Positions 1,097-49,828 of a DNA stretch of 50,179 bases are shown in pieces. The stretch is taken from IMG/VR virus record IMGVR_UViG_3300043652_000004, positions 1-50,179 of that record, one strand, 5' to 3'. Source of the stretch: a virus. Taxonomy: Duplodnaviria; Caudoviricetes. Made by a program: the position numbers and the translations under genes. Position 1 is the first letter of the stretch; each line of letters opens with the position of its first letter. The notes under the pieces are model-generated. The model saw nothing but the letters and a program-made list of their open reading frames with translations. It was not told the origin of the DNA and did no database searches.

Positions 1097-1351
1097 CTAA
1101 TAAGTGTTGATGTGGGCTTTCTTGCCGTGTATGGATAGCCATTGGCTGCACTTGGTACAGACCCATTGGCAACCACCATCGGAGAGCCTACCTGTGTAGA
1201 CATAGTGATGCCTACACCCTCCTGTGTAGACATAGTGATGCCTACACCCTGCGCCCCTTCTATGGATATCTATAGCAGTACGGCTCACAACCAAAAGGAA
1301 GATGAAGCCCAGCGATGCTTCCAGAGCCCATACATACCAAGGCATGTTCAT
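1097..1351 (-). CDS. Small membrane protein with Cys/His motif
   Basis: ATGA overlap with polymerase stop; N-terminal hydrophobic helix; duplicated GCRHHYVYTG; CTKC. Confidence 0.55.
   Translation of the reverse strand: MNMPWYVWALEASLGFIFLLVVSRTAIDIHRRGAGCRHHYVYTGGCRHHYVYTGRLSDGGCQWVCTKCSQWLSIHGKKAHINTY
1191..1250. repeat. Exact 30-bp tandem duplication
   Basis: CCTGTGTAGACATAGTGATGCCTACACCCT x2. Confidence 0.95.
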
Positions 1352-3222
1352 TCTTCGTACTCCTTTATCGCCGCCCAATTCGGCCCCAGTTTGGGGGTAC
1401 TTGTCATGGGTAGGTCAAAGGCTACGGCCGCCATCGCCTCACCCAGTATCTTCAATTCCTGCTTCGCTGCCTTCTTCGGCACACTTATGTTCACCTCGTC
1501 GTGCACCTGTACCATGAATCGCCCGTCGCGGCATATCGCGTCGTAGTTTATGACTGCTTGCTTGGTACAATCTGCCGCGCTACCTTGTATAAGATAGTTG
1601 AGTAGTTTGTAGCCAAAGTCGATGCGGCGACCGTTCAGCACTATCGACGGTTCCTTGTAATACAATCTTCCACCCCACGTTACAATCGGCTCGTCGTTGC
1701 GCGCTGCTAGCTTTATCGTTTTCTCCAGGTCGCGTACGCCGGGCATGGCCGCTCGCCGCGCATCCATAACTTGCTTGGCATGGTCTATATCGGTGTTCAT
1801 ACCTATAGCGAGCTTGCCAAGGCCCATACCGTAGATCGTGCCGAAGTTAAGGATCTTCACCGCTTTGCGCGGTAGCACCGTGCCGATAACGTTTGCGATG
1901 GCCTGCTGCACGTAAGCGTGAATGTCCATTCGTGGATTCGCGTTGTACGCCGCTAGCAAGGGGCCATCTTCGAAATGCGCCAAAATCCGTAGTTCCTGTT
2001 GGTCGTAGTCTCGGCCGGCGAATACGTGGGCGCGGTCGTCGGGCAGCACGTACTGGCGCACCAGTGGCAGCGGGGGCAGGTCAATCATCGTTGGATGTTC
2101 ATACCCATCGCCCTTACCATCCCATTCCGTGGGTATGTTCATAAAGTTTGGGCTGCACGACATACGCCCGGTTCTGCTACCGGCCTGCTTGCCTTCTGTG
2201 TGCTTTACTTGATTCCAATTCGTATGCAGTATTCCACCTGTCCGCGCTATGGCCTCGGCCCACGGTTGCATGAATGTACCTAGCGCGGTGTTCAACCTGT
2301 TGCGGTAGCCAAGTACGTAGAACACTCGCTTATCCTTAAACAGGTCTATCGTCAGGTTCGCCTTGCTTACGCTCTTTTGGCCGGTCGGGGTCATTACAAA
2401 GTCTGTTACTACCCCGGCTTTTTCTAAGGCGTCGCCTACCTGTCGGTCCTTATCTAGTTCTAGGTCGGGCGCCTTTAACCTCTTACGCAGCCATGTTTCC
2501 GACTTCGACATGGCCTCTTGATAAATCTCGATATCCTTATTCAACACCGATTGGTCGATGCGTATGCCCTCGCGCTCATTCCTTAGCATTATCGGCATCA
2601 ACTGCCGCTCGCGGTCGTACGCGCCGCCCATGCCCTGCGCTTGCACGATTGGGTAGAGTTTTTTGAATAATCTCAATGTACGCACTGTGTCCCCCACTGC
2701 GTACGGCGCCACAATTTCCACCGGGGCTTCGCTTATGTGCTGGCCCCAATCCTTTGGGGTGAACCTGCCGTACTTCGCCTCGATCTCTGCTTTGTGGGCT
2801 AGTACCCAGTTTTTCACCTTGTCCTGCTCTTCCGGCTTCATGCCGAGTATTTCTTCCGACATTGGTTTCAGCGACAAAGTCTTGCTGTGGGGGTACAGTA
2901 GAAACAGCAGGTAAAGCGTATCGTGAACACGTTGCCACGGCGGCAACTTTAAGCCCATGTGCACTTCCGCTACGTCAAGGTCAAACTTCGCGTTCTGGAA
3001 CAGTAGCGGCACCTTGCCATTCCATAAGTCCTTCAATCTTGCCTTCGCCTGCGACAGCGTACAGTTATTCTTGCCATTGGGGTGGCCCCATGCGTAGTAC
3101 GTACCTGACCGCGAACCCGGTAGAATAATACTTACGCCTACCGGGCGCGGCGGGTAGTTCGGCCTGCGAGCGATGCCCTTCGTCTCGAAGTCTATTGTTG
3201 CCACGGCAGGGCAGTTAGGCAT
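1348..3222 (-). CDS. polA: DNA polymerase, family A, with 3'-5' exonuclease
   Basis: ExoI IDFET, ExoII QNAKFD, ExoIII YAVGD; RTGRMS; motif A DYDQQELRILAH; motif B KILNFGTIYGMG; motif C VHDE; probable start MPNCP. Confidence 0.95.
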   Translation of the reverse strand: MPNCPAVATIDFETKGIARRPNYPPRPVGVSIILPGSRSGTYYAWGHPNGKNNCTLSQAKARLKDLWNGKVPLLFQNAKFDLDVAEVHMGLKLPPWQRVHDTLYLLFLLYPHSKTLSLKPMSEEILGMKPEEQDKVKNWVLAHKAEIEAKYGRFTPKDWGQHISEAPVEIVAPYAVGDTVRTLRLFKKLYPIVQAQGMGGAYDRERQLMPIMLRNEREGIRIDQSVLNKDIEIYQEAMSKSETWLRKRLKAPDLELDKDRQVGDALEKAGVVTDFVMTPTGQKSVSKANLTIDLFKDKRVFYVLGYRNRLNTALGTFMQPWAEAIARTGGILHTNWNQVKHTEGKQAGSRTGRMSCSPNFMNIPTEWDGKGDGYEHPTMIDLPPLPLVRQYVLPDDRAHVFAGRDYDQQELRILAHFEDGPLLAAYNANPRMDIHAYVQQAIANVIGTVLPRKAVKILNFGTIYGMGLGKLAIGMNTDIDHAKQVMDARRAAMPGVRDLEKTIKLAARNDEPIVTWGGRLYYKEPSIVLNGRRIDFGYKLLNYLIQGSAADCTKQAVINYDAICRDGRFMVQVHDEVNISVPKKAAKQELKILGEAMAAVAFDLPMTSTPKLGPNWAAIKEYEE

Positions 3223-3427
3223 TGGTAGACTCCCCCAGTGCGGCAAGCTCTGCATTTTCGCGCTGCCTGCGAAGTTCCCGAACACGGCCACGGGCTTTTT
3301 CCAGCCAGCGGTGTCTCTTCGGCCCGGCAAACTCCTTATCGTAGATTGCTTGGGCTTCGGCCTCGGTGCGGCAGTCGCGCAAGGCGTTTATTGTCTCGCG
3401 CCATGTTGGCTGCTGGTTCTGCTTCAC
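3215..3427 (-). CDS. Hypothetical protein (70 aa)
   Basis: AGGAG RBS; overlaps polymerase start; operon context. Confidence 0.7.
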   Translation of the reverse strand: MKQNQQPTWRETINALRDCRTEAEAQAIYDKEFAGPKRHRWLEKARGRVRELRRQRENAELAALGESTNA

Positions 3428-41750: not shown

Positions 41751-42095
41751 TCAATTCTTTGGCGTGTATCCACAACCTTTGCATGTCGCGCACGTTGTGT
41801 AGCCGATAACACGGAACTTGCGCTGTTTAACGTGTGCGCCTTGGCCACTGCACGCATTGCATATATCCCCATAGATATCGAGCTCTACAAATAGCTTGCG
41901 GCGCAAATCAAGCTGCGACAACATTCTGTAGGCCAACGCCAGTCGTGCAAACGCATGTGTATCGCCCCCACGGTCGGGATGCGCTTGCGCTGCGGCACGT
42001 TTCCATGCCGCCTTTATATCTTCGAAGCTGCTTTGTGTATTGCAGCCCAACAACTCAAACACTTCGAACACCGTTACTAGCGGTTGTGTATTCAT
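41751..42095 (-). CDS. Mini DnaJ-domain protein with zinc finger
   Basis: EDIKAAWKR..AQAHPDRGG; CNACSGQG and CATCKGCG. Confidence 0.85.
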   Translation of the reverse strand: MNTQPLVTVFEVFELLGCNTQSSFEDIKAAWKRAAAQAHPDRGGDTHAFARLALAYRMLSQLDLRRKLFVELDIYGDICNACSGQGAHVKQRKFRVIGYTTCATCKGCGYTPKN

Positions 42096-44191
42096 CTCTG
42101 CTTAACTCCCATTCTACGCATGTTTCTTGCACGCTCGTTATCGTAGTGCGCCGCCAGCTCGCGCAACGACATATTTTCCAGCCCCTTTATGGGCCTTATC
42201 GACCACAGTCTGTGCTGGCCATCTGCCGTACGTATTGGCATACCATCACCCACTTTGGCGAAGCCCTGCCTTGTAAGTTCTCGCGACAGGCCATTCACCG
42301 TTACCTTGGTGCTCTTGCCATTTTCGTATAGTACCAACAGGTCCTCACTCCGCCATAAGGCGAACGGCGCCACATGGCCGTCTACCGATAAGGCTCCATC
42401 GGGGTTTTCCTTTAGCTGGCTTACCCAATACGCCAGGTCACTACGTCCTGCGTCCATCATATCCCGCTTGCTTTTGGTCATCATCGCCCGGCCACTTGGG
42501 TTAAAATCGCCAAGGTCGAGCGTAAGTAAGTGGTGGAACAGCGCGGGTATGCCCGGCCCTACTGTTAGCTTGGGTCCCATCCAAGGCTCGTATACTCCAC
42601 TGTACCAAGGTTCGGGCAGCGCAGGCGCGCGGACTTCGTGAATAAAGTAGCGGCGGTCGTTGTCTTCGAGGAAGAACGAGTCGGGATGGTTGCTCGTAAA
42701 GTAGTAGTTGATAACGTCGGGCACGGTGTAGGCGGGGATGAACTTGGGGTTGAGCCTTAGCAACTGTCTTGTTATCATTGACTTCATTTTGTCCGACATA
42801 CCCCGCTTGTCGCCAGTGGTTATTTCGTCCCCCATTATGAATTGTTTGTTCTCGGCCCACTCGTTGTGCACCTGCTTTAGTTCTTCGTCGCCAATTTCCG
42901 TAGCGTTGCGGCCGTATATCTTCATCAACGTGTAGCCTATTAAGCTCTTGCCCGTGCCTTGGGCCAGCCCCCATATTACCGCGCTGCTGTACAGCTTTAC
43001 TCCTGGGTGCTGCAATGGGTAGGCACACCAACGTTCGAACCAGAGTCTGCTGTCAGGTTCTTTGTGGAATATCATGTCGAGCAGCATATTCCATGGTGTT
43101 ATGTCGCCCGGCACCGGTTCGCAGCCCCAGCCCGGCCAAATGTTCAACTCGCGCTTTTCTGTAACCTTCGGCTCGCCCGGCGCGTAGGTTATGCGCGGCA
43201 CTTCGGCTCTGCTCGGCCATTGTATCCATTCCTTCGGTGCGCTCTTGCGGGTTTTTACCGTACCCTTCTTACTCTGTGTTTCCTCTACAAACGTGCGTGT
43301 GCTGAATGCATGGTCGGTAAATGCGCGCGGCGACATGCGCTGCATATTGTCCATGCGGAATATAAGACCGGGGTCGCGTACATACACGACATCTTCATTT
43401 AGCCTGTGCAGTTCTTTCGCGTTCGCCCATATTTCTGCTTCTTCGAGCAGGCGTTCTAACGACGGTACACCCTTCTTTACTATGTAGTCGTCCAGACCCA
43501 TCTTCTCATCTTCGTCCATCGGCAGCCTTACGATGTGTGGCTCTGCACCACGTTCCGTTAATGCCTTTGCCAAAGCATTCTCTGCCTGCATTACCATCGG
43601 ATTGGTAACAGCGTCGCTGTCGTACACAATGAATACCGGTCGTTGCTCCCATTTAAAGTCGTCGAACGCGGGCAACATGTCCATCTTTCTTTTACCTGCG
43701 CGCCAGCTCCATACACCACCCAAGCCCACGCACGCATATTCTGTATTAAGGCACGCCGACGCGGCCTTGAACTCGCCTTCGGTAATGAGTATCGGCAGCA
43801 ACTGTTCCTCAGCTACTTGTTCCCAATCAATTACCGGGGGTAGGTACAGCTCATTCAAACTGTTCGGTGGTTGACTGTACTTAACCGGCTTTTTGTCTAT
43901 TAACGCAGAGAATCCGGTACGTGGGGGCTGACGCAGATAGCGGTATCGCTGGAACTTCGTAAGGTTGCCGGTGATGGAAAAGTACGGAATAACAATGCCC
44001 GGCTGGTCGATGGCCACCCATGCGGGCGGCTGCTTTACTGGCTGTAACTGCAACGTTGCTCCTTCTTTCTTAGGTATACCACTTTCCGCCAGCTTCGCTT
44101 CGTAGGCCGCTAGCAGGTCGAACCCGTTTGCGTGCGGCACCGTTGTATCTGTCTTGTGCGGCTTCCCTGCCGCCTTCTTTTGCTTGCCCAT
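42092..44191 (-). CDS. Primase-helicase (DUF3854/Toprim-like + DUF5906-like helicase)
   Basis: ITEGEFKA, GLGGVWSW, IVYDSD, GLDDY; Walker A QGTGKS; FTSNH, DRRY. Confidence 0.88.
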   Translation of the reverse strand: MGKQKKAAGKPHKTDTTVPHANGFDLLAAYEAKLAESGIPKKEGATLQLQPVKQPPAWVAIDQPGIVIPYFSITGNLTKFQRYRYLRQPPRTGFSALIDKKPVKYSQPPNSLNELYLPPVIDWEQVAEEQLLPILITEGEFKAASACLNTEYACVGLGGVWSWRAGKRKMDMLPAFDDFKWEQRPVFIVYDSDAVTNPMVMQAENALAKALTERGAEPHIVRLPMDEDEKMGLDDYIVKKGVPSLERLLEEAEIWANAKELHRLNEDVVYVRDPGLIFRMDNMQRMSPRAFTDHAFSTRTFVEETQSKKGTVKTRKSAPKEWIQWPSRAEVPRITYAPGEPKVTEKRELNIWPGWGCEPVPGDITPWNMLLDMIFHKEPDSRLWFERWCAYPLQHPGVKLYSSAVIWGLAQGTGKSLIGYTLMKIYGRNATEIGDEELKQVHNEWAENKQFIMGDEITTGDKRGMSDKMKSMITRQLLRLNPKFIPAYTVPDVINYYFTSNHPDSFFLEDNDRRYFIHEVRAPALPEPWYSGVYEPWMGPKLTVGPGIPALFHHLLTLDLGDFNPSGRAMMTKSKRDMMDAGRSDLAYWVSQLKENPDGALSVDGHVAPFALWRSEDLLVLYENGKSTKVTVNGLSRELTRQGFAKVGDGMPIRTADGQHRLWSIRPIKGLENMSLRELAAHYDNERARNMRRMGVKQR

Positions 44192-44206: not shown

Positions 44207-44656
44207 TTAATCCTGGTTTACATATCCTGCGCCTGCCTTGTGGGCCTGCTCCTGTTGTTCTTGCTTTCGCTGCTTTTCGACAAGTGTGTCCAGCTTTTCT
44301 CCGATCAGGTTTAAACTCCCATTACCTAGCCACTCCGACACGCTGGCGATAATCGACGTCTGCTGTTCGTCTAGCTTGTAGTTACGCACAAACCCGGCAA
44401 AGTCGAAGGGCTTGCGGCGGCAACGACCCAGTGGAGTAGCCCAGCCTTCGTTGTATACTTCCTTCAACTTCTCTACAAAGTGCCGGGCCTTGAGTAAATC
44501 CTGCAATGGCGTGCCTTTTGTCTTGTATCTTAAAACGTACTTTGTAATAGCTCCTTCTAAATACCGATTCTGCAACTGCCGCACTACGAAGTCCCAATGC
44601 TGCACTTGCGCCCCCTTGTAGTGCTCGCCACCTATCTGCATTTCATTCGCGTTCAT
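44207..44656 (-). CDS. DUF3310-like protein (putative nucleotide kinase family)
   Basis: QIGGEHYK...QHWD...YLEG.ITKY..RYK.K....DL.KA.H. Confidence 0.8.
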   Translation of the reverse strand: MNANEMQIGGEHYKGAQVQHWDFVVRQLQNRYLEGAITKYVLRYKTKGTPLQDLLKARHFVEKLKEVYNEGWATPLGRCRRKPFDFAGFVRNYKLDEQQTSIIASVSEWLGNGSLNLIGEKLDTLVEKQRKQEQQEQAHKAGAGYVNQD

Positions 44657-45213
44657 CTTTGTGCTTCCTTCCAGTTCTGGTGCAGTTGGTTGAATACGTT
44701 ACGCATACGTGCGGAGCTACCTATATTTTCTACAGCGTTGCTATGATTGTTAATCAAGTCATCCATGTAGCTCAAGTAGGTTATCGCTACTCTGCGCAAT
44801 CCTTTGTTGCCGCGCAGCAGCTCTTCCGTGCAGTAAATCAACCCGTCGGCGCTGTCTGCGAAGTGCAACCACGCATCTTCGTACAGGGTTAAGGTCTGCA
44901 GTAGGTCATGGTCGGCCAGCATTTCTAGCTCCATGGTGTTTATACTACTGCGAACTTCCCTACCCATTCTGCGCTTCGTGGGCGCGGGTATGTCCCCTAT
45001 TTCGCATTCCGGCAGGTCGTGTGCCAGTGCCGCCGCCAAAAGTTCTACACGCAGCGGTCCCAACACGTCTCTAGGCCACGTCGCAACAAGCAACAACGCC
45101 ACGCCCGCCGAATGCTGCCCCACCGTCTCGCGCACGTTTACTGCCTTGCCGTGGTAGCGCACTACGGCCAAGCCCGCCCGTATAAACGAAAGTATCTCGT
45201 TAAACGTCTTCAT
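44653..45213 (-). CDS. HD-domain nucleotidase (YfbR-like)
   Basis: RYH...ETVGQHS, ALAHDLPE..IGDIPAP.K, AD..D. Confidence 0.88.
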   Translation of the reverse strand: MKTFNEILSFIRAGLAVVRYHGKAVNVRETVGQHSAGVALLLVATWPRDVLGPLRVELLAAALAHDLPECEIGDIPAPTKRRMGREVRSSINTMELEMLADHDLLQTLTLYEDAWLHFADSADGLIYCTEELLRGNKGLRRVAITYLSYMDDLINNHSNAVENIGSSARMRNVFNQLHQNWKEAQR

Positions 45214-46247
45214 CGCTTTGCTCCTCCATAGTTGTGGTCTAGCCAAAACTTCATGGCCCAACGCCAGTCTGCCGCTTCGATGCGGCTCGCCTCGGCCTGC
45301 GCTGCGCCGTAATCTGTCTTGCGAAGTTCCCACGCACGCAGCATGGGGAACACCGTGTCGTGGAAGAAACGTAGCTTGATGTACTTGTGATAATTATACG
45401 ATGGAATGGTGAACAGCGCCGCGCAATCCCCACGAAACTGCTCATGGTCATCCATGGAATCGTATAGGGTCGGGGCGGCTTCTACGTTTTGGCTGTACGG
45501 GTTAAAGTCCAACTGCTTCGCTGTGTTCCTCGCCAGCTCGTTGCTAACAATGTCGGTGTATAGATGCAGGTCATTGCTCATCTGGCAGTACCAGCCCATT
45601 CCCACGCCTATGGCCAGCGCCATATATTCCTGCAACATACTCATATGCACCGCGTTCGCGCCGTAGCAGCCCCACCAGATATCGTTACTTCTACAACACA
45701 CAGTCATATTCAATTTGTCGTCGCGGCGGTCGAAGTAGATGTGCGTGTTGCACGGTACGTCCTTGCCGCCGTGGGTGGCCACGTACAGATCGGGATAGTA
45801 ATCACTGGCATCTCCATAGGTGTGCATGGCATTCCACATTGCCAGCACACAACGACGACTCTGTGGGTTTGCCTTCAACTCGTCGATAATCCAATCGAGC
45901 TGGTCGTAGCCGAAAAAGTTCCGCCATCTGTACCCGTACGCGCCCCACAAGGCTACTCCGTCATCGCTAAACTCTTTCATGCGCTTTACGTACTTGGTGA
46001 TATGGCTAACCCCGTTGAACCCTGCAAGCATCCACAGGCTTTCAACAAGGTGAAACACCGGGTTTGCATTGCGATGTTGCGGCGCCCCGATAACACGTTC
46101 CCAAGGATGGGTATACGTGGTAGCAACGGGTTCGTTGAATGCCATGACTTTGCCATTGCGACTGTCGCGCAGCGTGCCGCATTGGTCCAGCTTTTGCAGT
46201 GCTCTGCGCAGCCCTTCGTTTACGTTGCGGGCTTGTATGCTAATCAT
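45210..46247 (-). CDS. Thymidylate-synthase-family dUMP hydroxymethylase-like protein
   Basis: SRNG, ANPVFHL.E.LWMLAG, GAYGYRWR, KDVPCN, RSNDIWWG.YGAN (Asn indicates dUMP specificity), LHLY. Confidence 0.88.
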   Translation of the reverse strand: MISIQARNVNEGLRRALQKLDQCGTLRDSRNGKVMAFNEPVATTYTHPWERVIGAPQHRNANPVFHLVESLWMLAGFNGVSHITKYVKRMKEFSDDGVALWGAYGYRWRNFFGYDQLDWIIDELKANPQSRRCVLAMWNAMHTYGDASDYYPDLYVATHGGKDVPCNTHIYFDRRDDKLNMTVCCRSNDIWWGCYGANAVHMSMLQEYMALAIGVGMGWYCQMSNDLHLYTDIVSNELARNTAKQLDFNPYSQNVEAAPTLYDSMDDHEQFRGDCAALFTIPSYNYHKYIKLRFFHDTVFPMLRAWELRKTDYGAAQAEASRIEAADWRWAMKFWLDHNYGGAKR

Positions 46248-46264
46248 GCTCCTCGCTCCTCTGG

Positions 46265-47113
46265 TTAAATTCCGGGGTACAGCGACCTTGGTTTGCCTTC
46301 TCCCAGCCGTACTCTTTCGTACTTGTCGAACTCACACAAACAGTTCTGCAAGTCCTGGGCGTGTATCAGCTTTAGGTTCGGCGGCAGCTTGTCGTATACC
46401 TGCCTATGCACATAGTCCAAATGCTCCTTCCACTCTGCATCGTTCCAGTGCTGGTCTACCTCGCGCCCCATTACACGGTTTAAGCCCCGCCGGCTACCCG
46501 GCCCGCTTATGGCCCACGTTGCCCAGTCTTCAGCGTCCATTAATATCTTGGTCGCGTACTTGGTGTCTGCAATCATTTGGCCGACCATAAACCGGCCTTG
46601 GTTCTTAACCGCCACAACGCGCGCGGCGAAGCTGGCCAGTGTATCGCCTTTTCGTGGGCGTAGCTTGGCTCTATCCCGCCACAACGGCGTTAAAACATCG
46701 TCTGCTATAAAACAGGCTTTGTCCTTTTTATTCCCTTGCGTGCCGATCATGTACGCCCCAGTCCACACTTTCTCGCCCCTTGCCTGTCTGCTCTTGCAGG
46801 CTTCGATAAATCTGTGGGGCTTCCACGGTACCGGGTAGCCGATCTCGGCTAATGTGTCTGGGTGGTTATTCCACCTTGCTACCGCCATGGCGAACCAAAG
46901 GTCGGGTTCTAGTGCGTGCGGGCCGCGCCAGTTATCGCTAATCCATATAGTTACCTTGTCGTTTTCGCGGAATACGTTGCAGAATCTGTACCGCTGTAGT
47001 ATCGGGTCCTTAGTCCAGGGCTTTGCCTTGCCCGACGCGCGCGCCAAGTAAACGCCGTGGCGTGCTTTTATGAATTGGAACAGCCGCTTTATACCCTCGT
47101 CGATCTTGTTCAT
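46265..47113 (-). CDS. aGPT-Pplase1 family / 5-hmdU DNA kinase
   Basis: PWTKDPIL..YRFCNVFRE.D, GPGSRRGL, QNCLCEFDKYER. Confidence 0.88.
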   Translation of the reverse strand: MNKIDEGIKRLFQFIKARHGVYLARASGKAKPWTKDPILQRYRFCNVFRENDKVTIWISDNWRGPHALEPDLWFAMAVARWNNHPDTLAEIGYPVPWKPHRFIEACKSRQARGEKVWTGAYMIGTQGNKKDKACFIADDVLTPLWRDRAKLRPRKGDTLASFAARVVAVKNQGRFMVGQMIADTKYATKILMDAEDWATWAISGPGSRRGLNRVMGREVDQHWNDAEWKEHLDYVHRQVYDKLPPNLKLIHAQDLQNCLCEFDKYERVRLGEGKPRSLYPGI

Positions 47114-47676
47114 TACTTTGCTCCTCGTTTCAGGTACTTCAGTGTTTGTTCTAGGGCTTTCGTATGGTCGATATCCACAACATTAAAGCCCTCGCGCTTT
47201 GCCTTGGCGTAATTCCACTCTACGCGCTGGTAGTCGTCGATAACGTTTTGTTCTTTGAATGGCTTGGTATTTCCCCGTTCGGCGCGGCGGGCGTGTACGC
47301 GCTGCAAGCACACTTCCAATGGGGTATCCAGGTACGCCATTACCAACCTGTTCCCATACTTCTTTGTGGCCGCACCTACCGTGCCAAGGCAGTGCGATAT
47401 GAACAACCCCTCGTAGAACACAATGGGGTGCTTGTCGCAGTACCGCACTATTATCTCAGCAGCTTGTATGATGTCGGTGATTGTATCCATGCCACCGCAC
47501 ATGGTTGCATAGCTGCCAAGTATCACTAAGGGCTTGCCGTGCAACGTGCCCTTGTAAGCTTCTACCTTGTTACGCTTGCCGCGCCATGCAAAGGGCGATG
47601 CCTTGGACTTGCCGATAAGATTATGCGCCACGTAGCTTTTACCACTGCCGTTCGTACCGCGTAGGTTGAATATCAT
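47113..47676 (-). CDS. P-loop nucleotide kinase associated with T-modification clusters
   Basis: NLRGTNGSGKS, GSY...CGG.D, EGL, LDTPLEVCL.RV..RR. Confidence 0.85.
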   Translation of the reverse strand: MIFNLRGTNGSGKSYVAHNLIGKSKASPFAWRGKRNKVEAYKGTLHGKPLVILGSYATMCGGMDTITDIIQAAEIIVRYCDKHPIVFYEGLFISHCLGTVGAATKKYGNRLVMAYLDTPLEVCLQRVHARRAERGNTKPFKEQNVIDDYQRVEWNYAKAKREGFNVVDIDHTKALEQTLKYLKRGAK

Positions 47677-48353
47677 TTGTCTCTCCTAGCTAAAATTCTG
47701 GGTAGCTCGTTGGTCGTGGTACGGAACCCACTGCGATGCAGCGGTCGGGTCGTGTAGTACGCCGGTGTATTCCACAAAGCTGTTCTGCCCATAAGCAGCG
47801 GGCATGGATACCGCCCATTCTTGTATATGGCTATGTCCCTATGCCACTTCGGCGTGCCGTCGCTGTAAGTTTCTAGGTGGCGTACATGGCCTACGGGTTC
47901 TACATAATTTGCCGGGATGTACATTTCTGGGCCGTGTAGCGTGCGCTTCGGCACATAGATATCGCCCAACGGGTTCTTTGTAGTCAACTTCGGCAGTGCG
48001 ATACGGCCAAGGTGCATGGCAAGGTCATAATTATTCTCGAACGCCATACTCACCTGCGCGATGTACAGCAGATAACTCTGGCCATCGCCCACTGCCGCCT
48101 TTGGCAAGAATCCTGCGAACCACACACCTGCCCAGTCTGCAGGCTTGCGCGTAGTACGCAGATAATGCTTGCAGGTAGTTAAAGTCATTACGCTGCCCTG
48201 CCAATTCGGGCCGCTGCGAGTCTGCATTACATTGCGGCCATCGTAGTAGACTTCGTGGTGAGGATAGCAGTACACCGTCTGGTCGGGCGGCAGTTTTGGC
48301 AACGCGCCGTTGTAAGTGTAGAACGACCCTCGCTGTATCGGTTGATGTATCAC
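47673..48353 (-). CDS. Nmad2-like (nucleotide modification associated domain 2) protein
   Basis: SGPNWQG...TLTTCKHYLR, LLYIAQV, GDIY resemble the Nmad2 APN...TL.TCK..IR...GD.IY pattern. Confidence 0.65.
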   Translation of the reverse strand: MIHQPIQRGSFYTYNGALPKLPPDQTVYCYPHHEVYYDGRNVMQTRSGPNWQGSVMTLTTCKHYLRTTRKPADWAGVWFAGFLPKAAVGDGQSYLLYIAQVSMAFENNYDLAMHLGRIALPKLTTKNPLGDIYVPKRTLHGPEMYIPANYVEPVGHVRHLETYSDGTPKWHRDIAIYKNGRYPCPLLMGRTALWNTPAYYTTRPLHRSGFRTTTNELPRILARRDK

Positions 48354-49828
48354 TTAGTTCTCCTCGCTCGATAAGTTTTCATAGCATCCAAAAACGCCTT
48401 TTGCCGTTTGTCTTTTACCGACAGCATCGCCCGCTTTGCTACGTCTACCGTGCCCTTTGCCAATATGCGCGCCGCGAATACGTGCGCATTCGTGTTGCCC
48501 GACCTACGCAACCGCCGATTAGTCTGGTCGTACACGTCGAAGTCGTCGGGTAGTGAGAACCACAACAGATGCTGCGCGTTGCTGCCTTGCAGGTTCAAGC
48601 CGTGGCCGATGCTCTGGGGCTGGCCCAGTAGTACAGGCAGGTCACCGGCGTTCCAGCTATTCTCCATTACCCTGCCCTGCGCCAGCGACGCATCCGACAG
48701 GCACGGCACGCCCGCGCCCAGCCGCTTGCGAATGCGTATAAGGTCGTGCTTAAACTGGAATAGCACAAGCGTGGGCTGGCCATTGCGCTCTGCCAGGTAT
48801 TCCTCCAACGCATCCAGCTTCGCGTCGTGCAGTTCCTCGAAGTCTAGCTTGCCGCGCCGCTGCATTACTTCTAGCGGCTGGGTATAGACTGCCCCATTAG
48901 CCATCTGCGCGCACTTTGTTCTTGCGGCTGCCGCCGTGGGCGCTTCTATACCTGTACCGCTTTCGAGTATTGCCACCAAGTCATCTTCCATCTCGGTGTA
49001 ACGCAGGTACTCCTTGGGCGGCATGTCTACCCATATATCCTGCTCTACCAGCTTCGGCATGTGTATGTAGTCTTCTGCTTCTAGCCGCAGCACGTAGGGC
49101 TTCACTGCTTTGTAGATCGCTTGCTCTGTTGCTTTGGTACTGCCCTTGTCGTCCTTTTTTAACGCCCATGTGAATCCTCCGAACCCGGTGGGGTCGAAGT
49201 ATTTCATACGGTAGTGCGTTATGTACTGGCCCAGTGCTCTACCCAAGTCGATTATGTACATCTGCCCGAACAGGTCCATCAGGTTCCGCGCAGCGGGTGA
49301 ACCGGTGAGTATAAGGCGTCGTCGAAACTTGGGAAGGTAAGGACGGAGTAGTTTGAATCGCTTGGTCTGGGTATTTTTGAACTTCGAGCTTTCGTCAATG
49401 ACAAGCATGTCCGCGTCGAGTAGCCTGAAACGTTGCTTTGTGAATAGCCACTCGATACTATCCGGATTAGTGATATAGACGTCGATGCTTTCATCTTCCA
49501 ATGCCTCGTCGGTCTTGCCCTTGCCGTGCAGTACGCGGTACTTTAGGTGACGAAAGTCTTGCCACTTCTCGATTTCTGCTGGCCATACGTTGTAGCAAAC
49601 GCGCAGCGGCGCAATTACCAGCATTCGCCGTACTGCACCCTCCTGTTGCAATACTTTGAATGCCCCCAGTGTGATGCTAGTTTTTCTTAGGCCGGGGTCT
49701 AGTAGTAGCCCGGCGCATGGGTGCTCTAGTACCCACTTCATTGCGCGCTTCATGTAGGGCAGTGGGTTCCAGGCGAGCCCAGAGTATGCGAAGCCCGACT
49801 TCTTTATCCTCGACGACGTGGTGGTCAT
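48350..49828 (-). CDS. SNF2-family helicase
   Basis: LDPGLRKT, IDESS, LTGSP, GHGLNLQ, QTNRRLRRSG; start uncertain. Confidence 0.9.
   Translation of the reverse strand: MTTTSSRIKKSGFAYSGLAWNPLPYMKRAMKWVLEHPCAGLLLDPGLRKTSITLGAFKVLQQEGAVRRMLVIAPLRVCYNVWPAEIEKWQDFRHLKYRVLHGKGKTDEALEDESIDVYITNPDSIEWLFTKQRFRLLDADMLVIDESSKFKNTQTKRFKLLRPYLPKFRRRLILTGSPAARNLMDLFGQMYIIDLGRALGQYITHYRMKYFDPTGFGGFTWALKKDDKGSTKATEQAIYKAVKPYVLRLEAEDYIHMPKLVEQDIWVDMPPKEYLRYTEMEDDLVAILESGTGIEAPTAAAARTKCAQMANGAVYTQPLEVMQRRGKLDFEELHDAKLDALEEYLAERNGQPTLVLFQFKHDLIRIRKRLGAGVPCLSDASLAQGRVMENSWNAGDLPVLLGQPQSIGHGLNLQGSNAQHLLWFSLPDDFDVYDQTNRRLRRSGNTNAHVFAARILAKGTVDVAKRAMLSVKDKRQKAFLDAMKTYRARRTK

What the first reader, a model, noticed from the sequence alone, without database searches (positions are those of the whole stretch)
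45210..48353. Thymidine hypermodification cluster with an Nmad2-like gene where the amino-acid:DNA transferase is expected
Seen: a contiguous, mostly coupled run Nmad2-like > P-loop kinase > aGPT-Pplase1 > dUMP hydroxymethylase > HD. Established: in M6/ViI-type pathways hmdU in DNA is phosphorylated by the aGPT-Pplase1-family kinase, then substituted by an aGPT-Pplase2 amino-acid:DNA transferase, with PLP or radical-SAM tailoring enzymes. I recognise none of those downstream enzymes in this apparently complete genome, and to my knowledge Nmad2 has no demonstrated activity. Inference: either the DNA retains 5-phospho(or pyrophospho)methyl-dU, or Nmad2 catalyses or directs a different substitution, giving a possibly undescribed base.
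Basis: partly seen in the sequence, partly recalled or inferred. Interest (0 to 1): 0.8.

Follow-up and report, generated by a model that had tools for sequence, protein, structure and literature searches.

The report
Phage thymine-modification operon with Nmad2 enzyme
A complete soil phage genome carries the genes that make and phosphorylate hydroxymethyluracil in DNA, but in place of the usual transferase it has a distinct branch of the uncharacterised Nmad2 family, so its DNA probably holds a thymine derivative made by an enzyme nobody has studied.

Summary
On the minus strand of a complete 50,179-bp phage genome lies a translationally coupled run: SNF2 helicase, Nmad2-like protein, P-loop 5-hmdU DNA kinase, aGPT-Pplase1, TS-family dUMP hydroxymethylase, HD nucleotidase, DUF3310.

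No ADDT (aGPT-Pplase2), PLP, radical-SAM or glycosyltransferase gene was found anywhere in the genome.

The 226-aa protein misses Pfam's Nmad2 cut-off on its own (13.4 vs 26.1 bits). It is a family member by transitive evidence: 78 of 99 homologues hit Nmad2.

- The protein belongs to one clade found in 16 distinct phage or metagenome contigs.
- The gene lies beside the kinase gene in all 16, in shuffled gene orders. None of the 16 has ADDT.
- Among 80 kinase-centred viral loci, 59 have ADDT, 3 have Nmad2 and none has both.
- Cellular Nmad2 genes (80 loci) stand alone.
- The phage clade has lost two residues of a CxC…HxH motif and gained invariant Arg46, Arg158 and Lys169.

Best reading (about 0.45): the Nmad2-like enzyme acts on phosphorylated hmdU in DNA. 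Two earlier first-reader notes of this scan describe the same gene set on other DNA.

The parts
48350..49828 (-). SNF2-family helicase, first gene of the coupled run
   Evidence: PF00176 5.6e-19; phrog_62 2.2e-122. Its stop overlaps the Nmad2-like GTG start.
47673..48353 (-). Nmad2-like protein, 226 aa, member of the kinase-linked clade
   Evidence: Own Pfam hit to Nmad2 is only 13.4 bits. 78 of 99 homologues hit PF18753. 373 relatives at E<=0.001. AF2 model pLDDT 96.2. Clade support 100. Clade-specific R46, R158 and K169, with Thr at position 59.
47113..47676 (-). P-loop 5-hmdU DNA kinase (5-HMUDK type), 187 aa
   Evidence: PF18748 6.6e-10, 39.2 bits against cut-off 27. 32% identity over the full length to the phi_M6 homologue of gp54. 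Walker A motif GTNGSGKS.
46265..47113 (-). aGPT-Pplase1 / HMUDK_hel helix-hairpin-helix protein, 282 aa
   Evidence: PF18723 9.4e-39. C260, E261 and K264 are invariant in 44 sequences. C260 aligns with the ADDT catalytic Cys.
45210..46247 (-). TS-family enzyme, predicted dUMP hydroxymethylase, 345 aa
   Evidence: PF00303 8.9e-20; phrog_5131 9.2e-102. 43% identity to the phi_M6 homologue. Motifs KDVPCN and RSND..WG..GAN, Asn type.
44653..45213 (-). HD-domain 5'-deoxynucleotidase-like protein, 186 aa
   Evidence: PF12917 YfbR-like 2.5e-09. Its ATG overlaps the TS stop.
44207..44656 (-). DUF3310 protein, candidate nucleotide kinase, 149 aa
   Evidence: PF11753 2.5e-08; phrog_5839 2e-27; PHROG 'nucleotide kinase' families such as phrog_236 1.1e-13.
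1348..3330 (-). Family A DNA polymerase that would incorporate the modified nucleotide
   Evidence: The Pfam scan of alignment A1 lists DNA_pol_A 1.6e-47 for one member. This ORF matches the PolA ORFs of related loci.

Best explanation
This is a post-replicative thymidine hypermodification operon of the hmdU type in which a phage-specific branch of the Nmad2 family takes the place of the amino-acid:DNA transferase.

Steps inferred from homology with characterised systems:
1. The TS homologue makes 5-hmdUMP.
2. The HD nucleotidase and the DUF3310 protein shape the nucleotide pool.
3. The phage PolA puts hmdU into DNA.
4. The P-loop kinase phosphorylates hmdU in DNA to 5-PmdU.

Steps inferred here, none shown:
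5. The Nmad2-like protein binds the phosphorylated base. The clade-specific Arg46, Arg158 and Lys169 hold the phosphate.
6. The invariant Cys61, with His156, Asp131 and Asp173, promotes loss of phosphate and capture of a nucleophile at the C5 methylene. The nucleophile is unknown.
7. The result is a thymine derivative that has not been described.

aGPT-Pplase1 has a more general role tied to hmdU, because most of its close relatives occur without any kinase.
For: Gene set and completeness.

ADDT is absent here, and the positive controls work.

Linkage to the kinase:
- The Nmad2-like gene is next to the kinase gene in 16 of 16 distinct contigs. These are the window, L001-L006, eight metagenome loci and L238.
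- Three different gene orders occur.
- Pplase1 is present in 15 of 16; the exception, L178, is a 1.9-kb fragment.
- ADDT is present in 0 of 16.

Kinase-centred sample of 80 viral loci:
- ADDT 59, Nmad2 3, both 0 (hypergeometric P = 0.016).
- With at least 5 kb on both sides (34 loci): ADDT 30, Nmad2 1, neither 3.

Pplase1-centred sample of 80 loci:
- 65 loci have no kinase. None of these has Nmad2 or ADDT.
- Nmad2 therefore follows the kinase, not hmdU synthesis.

The 15 kinase-linked rows then known form one clade with support 100 and contain no cellular rows.

Active-site remodelling in the 14 clade members of alignment A3 against the other 85 rows:
- G46 to R, 14 of 14.
- H158 to R, 14 of 14.
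- Position 169 Lys, 14 of 14.
- C59 to T, S or A, 14 of 14.
- C61, H156, D131 and D173 are kept.

The known ADDT mechanism also uses a cysteine and phosphate departure (PMC8989533 passages; PMC13458397 sections 37 and 40).
Against: No activity is known for any Nmad2 protein.

Cellular Nmad2 genes have no kinase, Pplase1, TS or ADDT nearby: 0 of 80 loci for Pplase1 and ADDT, and one weak kinase-HMM hit. The family's basic chemistry is therefore not tied to 5-PmdU.

Loss of two residues of the CxC…HxH motif could mean loss of catalysis, leaving a binding or reader protein.

Foldseek found no significant structural neighbour. The weak top hits are base-reader folds (EVE, ASCH, YTH-like) with probability at most 0.28.

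Pplase1 keeps the catalytic-type Cys.

SP10 makes a hypermodified base with a kinase-Pplase1 fusion and neither ADDT nor Nmad2.

Some kinase-bearing loci have neither ADDT nor Nmad2: 3 of 34 well-flanked loci in the kinase-centred sample, and L120 and L133 in the Pplase1-centred sample.

Most of the 16 contigs are fragments. Only five are rated 100% complete and one 87%.
Confidence: 0.45

Rival explanations
1. aGPT-Pplase1 is the group-transfer enzyme acting on 5-PmdU, as it may be in SP10. The Nmad2-like protein is an accessory: it tailors the appended group, supplies the nucleophile, or sets sequence or substrate specificity.
For: C260, E261 and K264 of Pplase1 are invariant in 44 sequences.

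C260 aligns with the catalytic Cys of ADDT in M6 and Pam3, and the Cys is also present in SP10 gp186C.

SP10 gp186 is a PF18748 + PF18723 fusion. The SP10 genome has no PF18724 at E<=1, yet SP10 DNA carries alpha-glutamylthymidine (PMC8989533 introduction passages).

Pplase1 is present in 15 of 16 Nmad2 contigs.
Against: The ADDT metal ligands (Glu and Thr at positions -4 and -3 from the Cys; PMC13458397 section 37) are replaced by Gln/Glu and Asn/His in Pplase1.

M6 gp55, the phage's other aGPT-Pplase, was not needed for GlyT formation in lysates (PMC8989533).

65 of 80 close Pplase1 loci have no kinase within 10 kb, so Pplase1 does not generally depend on 5-PmdU.

If Pplase1 alone were sufficient, the strict exclusion between ADDT and Nmad2 would be unexplained.
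Confidence: 0.27
2. No substitution occurs. The DNA keeps 5-PmdU, or a mixture of hmdU, PmdU and T. The Nmad2-like protein is a non-catalytic or hydrolytic partner that recognises the modified base, for example to protect it, to limit phosphorylation or to counter a host defence.
For: Two independent models, of the phage-type and the canonical Nmad2, give the same weak top Foldseek hits to base-reader folds: THYN1 EVE domain, ASCH, YTH, McrB N-terminal domain.

The clade has lost two residues of the CxC…HxH motif.

Phosphorylation alone already blocked NcoI cleavage in vitro (PMC8989533 passage).
Against: None of the Foldseek hits is significant: best E 0.14, TM at most 0.43.

Cys61, His156, Asp131 and Asp173 remain invariant, which suggests retained chemistry.

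Mutual exclusion with ADDT fits replacement of an enzymatic step better than an unrelated accessory.
Confidence: 0.18
3. The Nmad2-like protein works on free nucleotides, shaping the pool for hmdUTP synthesis, and has no role on DNA.
For: It sits in an operon with TS, HD and DUF3310 nucleotide-metabolism genes.
Against: It is absent from all 65 kinase-less Pplase1 loci, many of which carry TS, HD and DUF3310 genes and so need the same pool. It is present only where the DNA kinase is.
Confidence: 0.05

Closest known systems
Thymidine hypermodification clusters of Pseudomonas phages M6/YuA and PaMx11 and cyanophage Pam3 (5-HMUDK + ADDT/aGPT-Pplase2 + tailoring enzymes)
   Same: Collinear core of P-loop kinase, aGPT-Pplase1, TS homologue and an HD-type gene (annotated 5'-deoxynucleotidase in Pam3), followed in Pam3 by a 'nucleotide modification' gene. 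The kinase is 32% and the TS 43% identical to the phi_M6 proteins.
   Different: M6 has aGPT-Pplase2, a PLP enzyme and a radical-SAM enzyme upstream of the kinase, and an Nmad5-labelled gene after Pplase1 (label from PMC9476957, and the Pam3 annotation). The window has none of these and carries an Nmad2-like gene instead.
Bacillus phage SP10 gp186 (kinase fused to aGPT-Pplase1); alpha-glutamylthymidine
   Same: Kinase plus Pplase1-type domain with the CE..K motif. No PF18724 ADDT in the genome.
   Different: The domains are fused in SP10 and separate here. SP10 has no Nmad2. In SP10 the enzyme that attaches glutamate is not identified in the passages I read.
Pfam PF18753 Nmad2, canonical cellular members (mostly Planctomycetota and Chloroflexota MAGs)
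   Same: Shared invariant or near-invariant P49, N50, G53, T57, T60, C61, K62, R66, W74, G130, D131, P135, P153, H156, W170 and D173.
   Different: Cellular genes stand alone with no conserved neighbour and carry CxC…HxH. The phage clade has T/S/A59, R158, R46 and K169 and is always kinase-linked.
Kinase-less TS + aGPT-Pplase1 modules of marine and soil phages, some with TAGT glycosyltransferase (noted for pelagiphages in PMC9599517)
   Same: Same adjacent Pplase1-TS pair, with HD and DUF3310 genes downstream in many of the loci.
   Different: They have no kinase, no Nmad2 and no ADDT. 36 of 86 loci hold a member of a BLAST cluster whose one tested member is PF20691 TAGT.
Bacterial defence system with TS, dNMP kinase, 5-hmdU kinase and an NMAD domain (DefensePredictor, PMC13092281)
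   Same: Combination of TS, 5-hmdU-kinase-type and 'nucleotide-modification associated' domains (figure-legend passages seen).
   Different: It is a cellular anti-phage system. Which NMAD family it holds is not stated in the text I saw. Not compared by sequence here.

Membership tests
M6/ViI/PhiW-14-type thymidine hypermodification pathway | TS-family dUMP hydroxymethylase | tested here: met
   PF00303 8.9e-20 and phrog_5131 9.2e-102. 43% identity to the phi_M6 homologue, Asn-type pyrimidine pocket motif. Hydroxymethylase rather than methylase activity is inferred, not shown.
M6/ViI/PhiW-14-type thymidine hypermodification pathway | P-loop 5-hmdU DNA kinase | tested here: met
   PF18748 39.2 bits against cut-off 27. 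32% identity over 186 aligned positions to the phi_M6 gp54 homologue.
M6/ViI/PhiW-14-type thymidine hypermodification pathway | Amino-acid/diamine:DNA transferase (ADDT, aGPT-Pplase2, PF18724) | tested here: not met
   0 six-frame matches at E<=1 in the complete genome. A custom HMM built from 8 ADDT sequences found nothing in the window ORFs. Controls were positive.
M6/ViI/PhiW-14-type thymidine hypermodification pathway | Tailoring enzyme (PLP decarboxylase, radical SAM, FAD lyase, acetyltransferase) | tested here: not met
   Pfam scans of 77 ORFs at E<=0.01 list none.
M6/ViI/PhiW-14-type thymidine hypermodification pathway | Hypermodified thymidine in virion DNA | not testable with these tools
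   Uncultured phage. Only one assembled soil-metagenome run holds the sequence.
Pfam Nmad2 (PF18753) | Score above the family's gathering threshold | tested here: not met
   13.4 bits against 26.1, E=0.055, residues 46-75 only. The six-frame search gave 13.8 bits.
Pfam Nmad2 (PF18753) | Homology to bona fide members over the whole domain | tested here: met
   phmmer found 373 relatives, with alignments spanning about residues 20-220. 78 of 99 of them hit PF18753. The Atlas gave 25 of 30 hits in Nmad2-bearing clusters.
Pfam Nmad2 (PF18753) | CxC…HxH motif of canonical members (a motif defined here from the alignment, not from the literature) | tested here: not met
   The window has T59 and R158. 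Canonical members have C59 in 75 of 85 and H158 in 79 of 85.
aGPT-Pplase1 / HMUDK_hel (PF18723) | Full-length profile match and conserved Cys-Glu..Lys motif | tested here: met
   133.9 bits, profile positions 4-278 of 281. C260, E261 and K264 invariant.
ADDT family, as a homologue | Sequence or profile similarity of the Nmad2-like protein to HhH Pplase proteins | tested here: not met
   hhalign of the Nmad2 alignment against the Pplase1 alignment gave probability 0.2%. Any replacement of ADDT would be by analogy, not by homology.

The most novel reading that the evidence does not exclude
The kinase-linked Nmad2 clade is a new enzyme class, unrelated in fold to the helix-hairpin-helix ADDT. It displaces the phosphate of 5-phosphomethyl-dU in DNA through Cys61 chemistry, with an Arg/Lys phosphate pocket that evolved from a metal site. 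It installs a substituent not yet seen on thymine. A second, independent solution to post-replicative thymine hypermodification would then exist in uncultured soil and marine phages.
Probability: 0.35. Interest if true: 0.85.

Novelty: new variant of a known kind. Interest (0 to 1): 0.7.

Why it matters
Every thymidine hypermodification whose transfer step has been reconstituted (M6, ViI, PaMx11, PhiW-14, SH-Ab 15599) uses the same transferase family after the DNA kinase.

A recurrent phage lineage keeps the kinase but swaps that transferase for an unrelated, uncharacterised protein. This points to an unknown DNA base, an unknown enzyme chemistry on DNA, or both.

It also gives the orphan Nmad2 family its first testable substrate hypothesis. 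It offers a small three-gene set (kinase, Pplase1, Nmad2-like) that can be reconstituted on hmdU-DNA without culturing the phage.

New DNA-modifying enzymes of this type have been useful as tools and for understanding how phages escape restriction.

Tried and rejected
Structure-based naming. The AF2 model of the window protein (pLDDT 96.2) and of a canonical Nmad2 (pLDDT 87.2) gave no Foldseek match at E<=0.001 in PDB or BFVD. The recurring weak hits to EVE, ASCH, YTH and ATP-sulfurylase N-domains are kept only as a lead. A profile search of PDB sequences gave one chance-level row.

Complex prediction. Pplase1 + kinase + Nmad2-like returned 'no answer' (score 0.00, controls not folded). It counts neither for nor against binding.

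Fusions. Searches for longer proteins, with the single protein and with the clade alignment, found none. This is weak evidence. Pfam on ten longer homologues showed only one DUF6508 fusion.

Cultured relatives. tblastn of the Nmad2-like protein against 50,697 phage records gave no match. No cultured phage is available for chemistry.

NCBIfam gave no name for the Nmad2-like, Pplase1 or DUF3310 proteins.

Expression and reads. One DNA run, kept as contigs and possibly the source sample, holds the stretch, and no RNA holder is listed. Read laying was not used, because contigs cannot show base modification.

Literature:
- 'Nmad2' returns 3 unrelated papers.
- 'Nmad5/Nmad3/Nmad4/Pplase1/HMUDK' returns 17 papers, none on Nmad2 function.
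- '5-PmdU' and related terms return 4 papers.
- Iyer et al. 2013, the source of the aGPT-Pplase names, is not held, so I could not read what it says about Nmad domains.
- Supplements were not opened. Supplementary figures of PMC8989533 and PMC13458397 may bear on the role of Pplase1.

Rejected idea: that the Nmad2-like gene is a mis-called ORF. It has 373 relatives, a confident fold and a conserved N-terminus (Gln4).

Rejected idea: that ADDT was missed through divergence. phmmer with M6 and Pam3 ADDT did miss divergent ADDTs in other loci. I therefore rebuilt an HMM from 8 sequences and relied on the Pfam model in six frames. Both were negative for the window, and the Pfam six-frame searches were also negative for the full records of L001-L006.

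A wrong accession recalled from memory (PF18725, which is HEPN_SAV2148 and not aGPT-Pplase3) wasted.

Full report
WHAT IS THERE

The window is a whole virus record of 50,179 bp. It has a 26-bp terminal direct repeat and is rated 100% complete. Nearly all genes are on the minus strand.

The finding's region holds a run of overlapping or closely spaced genes:
- SNF2 helicase, 48350-49828.
- A 226-aa protein, 47673-48353. It has a GTG start preceded by GAGGAG, and the start overlaps the SNF2 stop.
- A 187-aa P-loop protein, 47113-47676 (ATGA overlap).
- A 282-aa protein, 46265-47113 (TAATG overlap).
- A 345-aa TS homologue, 45210-46247.
- An HD protein, 44653-45213 (ATGA overlap).
- A DUF3310 protein, 44207-44656.
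- A primase-helicase, 42092-44191.

Pfam and PHROG assign the following:
- P-loop protein: PF18748 '5-hmdU DNA kinase', 6.6e-10, above the cut-off.
- 282-aa protein: PF18723 (formerly aGPT-Pplase1, now 'HMUDK_hel'), 9.4e-39.
- TS homologue: PF00303, 8.9e-20, and phrog_5131, 9.2e-102.
- HD protein: YfbR-like 5'-deoxynucleotidases, 2.5e-09.

The kinase is 32% identical over its whole length to the phi_M6 homologue of the characterised kinase gp54. The TS homologue is 43% identical to the phi_M6 one. It has the catalytic KDVPCN cysteine and an Asn-type pyrimidine motif.

IS 47673-48353 AN NMAD2?

On its own it is not, by Pfam's rule. The only hit is Nmad2 at E=0.055, 13.4 bits against a cut-off of 26.1, over 30 residues.

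A full HMMER scan of 1.84 billion representative proteins gave 373 relatives at E<=0.001. Of the 99 I aligned (99 of the 150 listed), 78 hit PF18753 at E<=0.001. The ESM Atlas gave 25 of 30 feature hits in clusters that carry Nmad2.

The protein shares the family's invariant positions: PN at 49-50, T57, T60-C61-K62, R66, G130-D131, H156, W170 and D173. It is therefore a divergent member of the family.

IS A KNOWN DOWNSTREAM ENZYME HIDDEN IN THE GENOME?

PF18724 (ADDT, the former aGPT-Pplase2) gives no six-frame match at E<=1. The same search finds it in phi_M6 (2.4e-48) and Pam3 (6.1e-20).

Single-sequence phmmer had missed divergent ADDTs in other loci. I therefore built an HMM from eight ADDT sequences. 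It also finds nothing among the window's ORFs.

Pfam scans of 77 ORFs (10, 27, 30, 10) list replication, recombination, lysis and structural families only. There is no PLP enzyme, radical SAM, glycosyltransferase, flavin lyase or acetyltransferase.

COMPARATIVE EVIDENCE

(a) Viral contigs found with the Nmad2 alignment
- There are 6 loci. All 6 have the Nmad2-like gene directly beside the P-loop kinase and Pplase1 genes.
- Three orders occur: Nmad2-kinase-Pplase1, Pplase1-Nmad2-kinase and Pplase1-kinase-Nmad2.
- 5 of 6 also show the TS homologue. The sixth ends at the contig edge.
- None of the 6 records has ADDT. Four of them are rated 100% complete and one 87%.

(b) Metagenome contigs found with the clade alignment
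- There are 24 loci. Twelve are close relatives and twelve are distant.
- Eight are new, and all eight have the kinase adjacent. Seven of the eight also show Pplase1; the eighth is a 1.9-kb fragment.
- One close relative is a 1.4-kb fragment without flanks.
- The 12 distant ones have none of these genes.
- No ADDT hit appears in any of the 24.

(c) Kinase-centred sample
- This is the 80 best of at least 435 kinase-encoding viral loci.
- ADDT is in 59, Nmad2 in 3 (one of them a new contig, L238), both in 0 and neither in 18.
- Among the 34 loci with at least 5 kb on both sides of the kinase: ADDT 30, Nmad2 1, neither 3.
- The chance of no overlap is 0.016.

(d) Pplase1-centred sample
- This is the 80 best of at least 584 loci.
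- TS is in 70, the kinase in 15, ADDT in 6 (all kinase-positive) and Nmad2 in 0.

Altogether 16 distinct contigs carry this Nmad2 type, always beside the kinase and never with ADDT.

(e) Cellular Nmad2
- 80 loci came from bacterial and archaeal genomes, mostly Planctomycetota and Chloroflexota MAGs.
- They show no Pplase1 or ADDT (0 of 80), one weak kinase-HMM hit and no conserved neighbour at all.
- The apparent neighbour clusters are shadow ORFs on the opposite strand of the gene itself.
- 46 of the 77 ORF-level genes have at least 3 kb on both sides.

(f) Tree
- A FastTree of 155 rows puts the 15 kinase-linked rows then known into one clade with support 100.
- That clade has 33 rows and contains no cellular row.
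- FastTree local support is not a bootstrap.

ACTIVE-SITE COMPARISON

Canonical members carry a CxC…HxH pattern: C59 in 75 of 85, C61 in 84 of 85, H156 in 84 of 85 and H158 in 79 of 85.

The 14 clade members in the alignment differ as follows:
- Position 59 is T, S or A (no Cys in 14).
- Position 158 is R (14 of 14).
- Position 46 is R (14 of 14, against Gly in 78 of 85).
- Position 169 is K (14 of 14).

C61, H156, D131 and D173 are kept. That the canonical motif binds a metal is my inference. So is the idea that the new basic residues bind the 5-phosphomethyl group.

STRUCTURE

The AF2 model is very confident (pLDDT 96.2, pTM 0.91). Foldseek finds no significant neighbour in PDB or BFVD.

An independent model of a canonical member (pLDDT 87.2) gives the same weak top hits: THYN1 EVE domain, ZmASCH, McrB N-terminal domain and ATP-sulfurylase N-domain. 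Probabilities are at most 0.28 and TM at most 0.43.

These folds are PUA-like, and several read modified bases. This is a lead only. The VIA-align libraries were not available.

In the characterised systems the DNA kinase is the P-loop protein: M6 gp54, ViI gp67 and gp243, PhiW-14 gp37 and SP10 gp186 (Table 1 and results passages of PMC8989533). The aGPT-Pplases are helix-hairpin-helix proteins. Clade 2 is the transferase. M6 gp55, the phage's other aGPT-Pplase, could be left out of the lysate mix without loss of GlyT.

Pfam's present name for PF18723 probably reflects the SP10 fusion. SP10 gp186 is PF18748 plus PF18723.

Two further points weaken 'no transferase'.

First, Pplase1 keeps a cysteine that aligns with the catalytic Cys of ADDT:
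- C260, E261 and K264 are invariant in 44 sequences.
- The Cys is also present in SP10 gp186C.
- The catalytic Cys and the Glu/Thr metal ligands of ADDT are described in sections 37 and 40 of PMC13458397.
- In Pplase1 the two metal-ligand positions are Gln/Glu and Asn/His.

Second, SP10 carries alpha-glutamylthymidine yet has no PF18724 and no PF18753 in its 143,986-bp genome.

MOST LIKELY MECHANISM

The pre-replicative part and the phosphorylation step follow from homology.

For the step after phosphorylation I favour the Nmad2-like protein as the enzyme that acts on 5-PmdU in DNA, with confidence about 0.45. Its presence tracks the kinase exactly as ADDT's does. It excludes ADDT. It is absent from kinase-less hmdU modules, and its conserved site has been remodelled in this clade alone.

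The main rival (0.27) is that Pplase1 does the transfer and Nmad2 tailors or assists. A third reading (0.18) is that the DNA stays phosphorylated or partly converted and Nmad2 is a reader or hydrolase. A pool-enzyme role is unlikely (0.05).

None of these can be settled without chemistry.

KNOWN OR NEW

The pathway type is known.

The association of Nmad domains with nucleotide-modification genes is implied by the Pfam name. Its origin in the Aravind group's work is recalled, not checked: Iyer et al. 2013 is not held.

I found no paper in the held library on Nmad2 function.

New here, as far as these searches show:
- The delimitation of a kinase-linked clade.
- Its exclusion with ADDT.
- Its altered motif.
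- The contrast with stand-alone cellular members.

Two earlier first-reader notes of this scan (e1-6262953, e1-5894234) describe the same gene set in other genomes. I did not test those genomes.

Noticed in passing
L148:11650-12432 and the BLAST cluster it belongs to (36 of 86 Pplase1 loci): A TET-associated glycosyltransferase (PF20691, 1.7e-23) recurs next to the Pplase1-TS pair, mostly in loci without a kinase. This suggests sugar-type hmdU modification without phosphorylation. Only one cluster member was scanned with Pfam.
   Followed up: partly
L130:4443-5387, L131, L140, L141, L144: Five kinase-bearing loci lack both ADDT and Nmad2. They share an unknown 314-406 aa protein with no Pfam hit. 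It sits beside a radical SAM/SPASM enzyme (L130:6006-7037) or a SAM methyltransferase (L140:12537-13127). It may be a third alternative downstream enzyme.
   Followed up: partly
L121:12320-13429 and L121:13417-14469; also L162: A myo-inositol-1-phosphate-synthase-like gene (PF01658, 8.1e-36) lies directly upstream of a divergent ADDT (1.4e-15). This hints at an unusual donor molecule.
   Followed up: no
L016-L095 (cellular Nmad2 loci): Canonical Nmad2 genes of Planctomycetota, Chloroflexota and others stand alone with no conserved neighbour and carry a CxC…HxH motif. A 284-aa upstream ORF recurs in 7 of 77 loci and was not identified.
   Followed up: partly
L201 (Bacillus phage SP10, NC_019487.1), gp186 at L201:12383-14296: SP10 gp186 is a kinase-Pplase1 fusion. 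The whole SP10 genome has neither ADDT nor Nmad2, so the glutamate-attaching enzyme of this classical phage is still not assigned by family.
   Followed up: partly
window 41751-42095 (-): A 114-aa phage protein has a DnaJ J-domain (2.5e-09) and a CXXCXGXG zinc-finger segment, just downstream of the primase gene.
   Followed up: no
L096-L175 (Pplase1-centred loci): 65 of the 80 closest Pplase1 loci have no detectable 5-hmdU DNA kinase within 10 kb, although 70 of 80 have the TS homologue. Pplase1 is therefore tied to hmdU synthesis rather than to the kinase, despite its current Pfam name.
   Followed up: partly
window 47113-47676 (-) and L012:5411-5974: PHROG labels this kinase family 'terminase small subunit' (phrog_800). 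GenBank records of phi_M6 and SP10 carry that label on the 5-hmdU DNA kinase gene, which is an annotation error that propagates.
   Followed up: no
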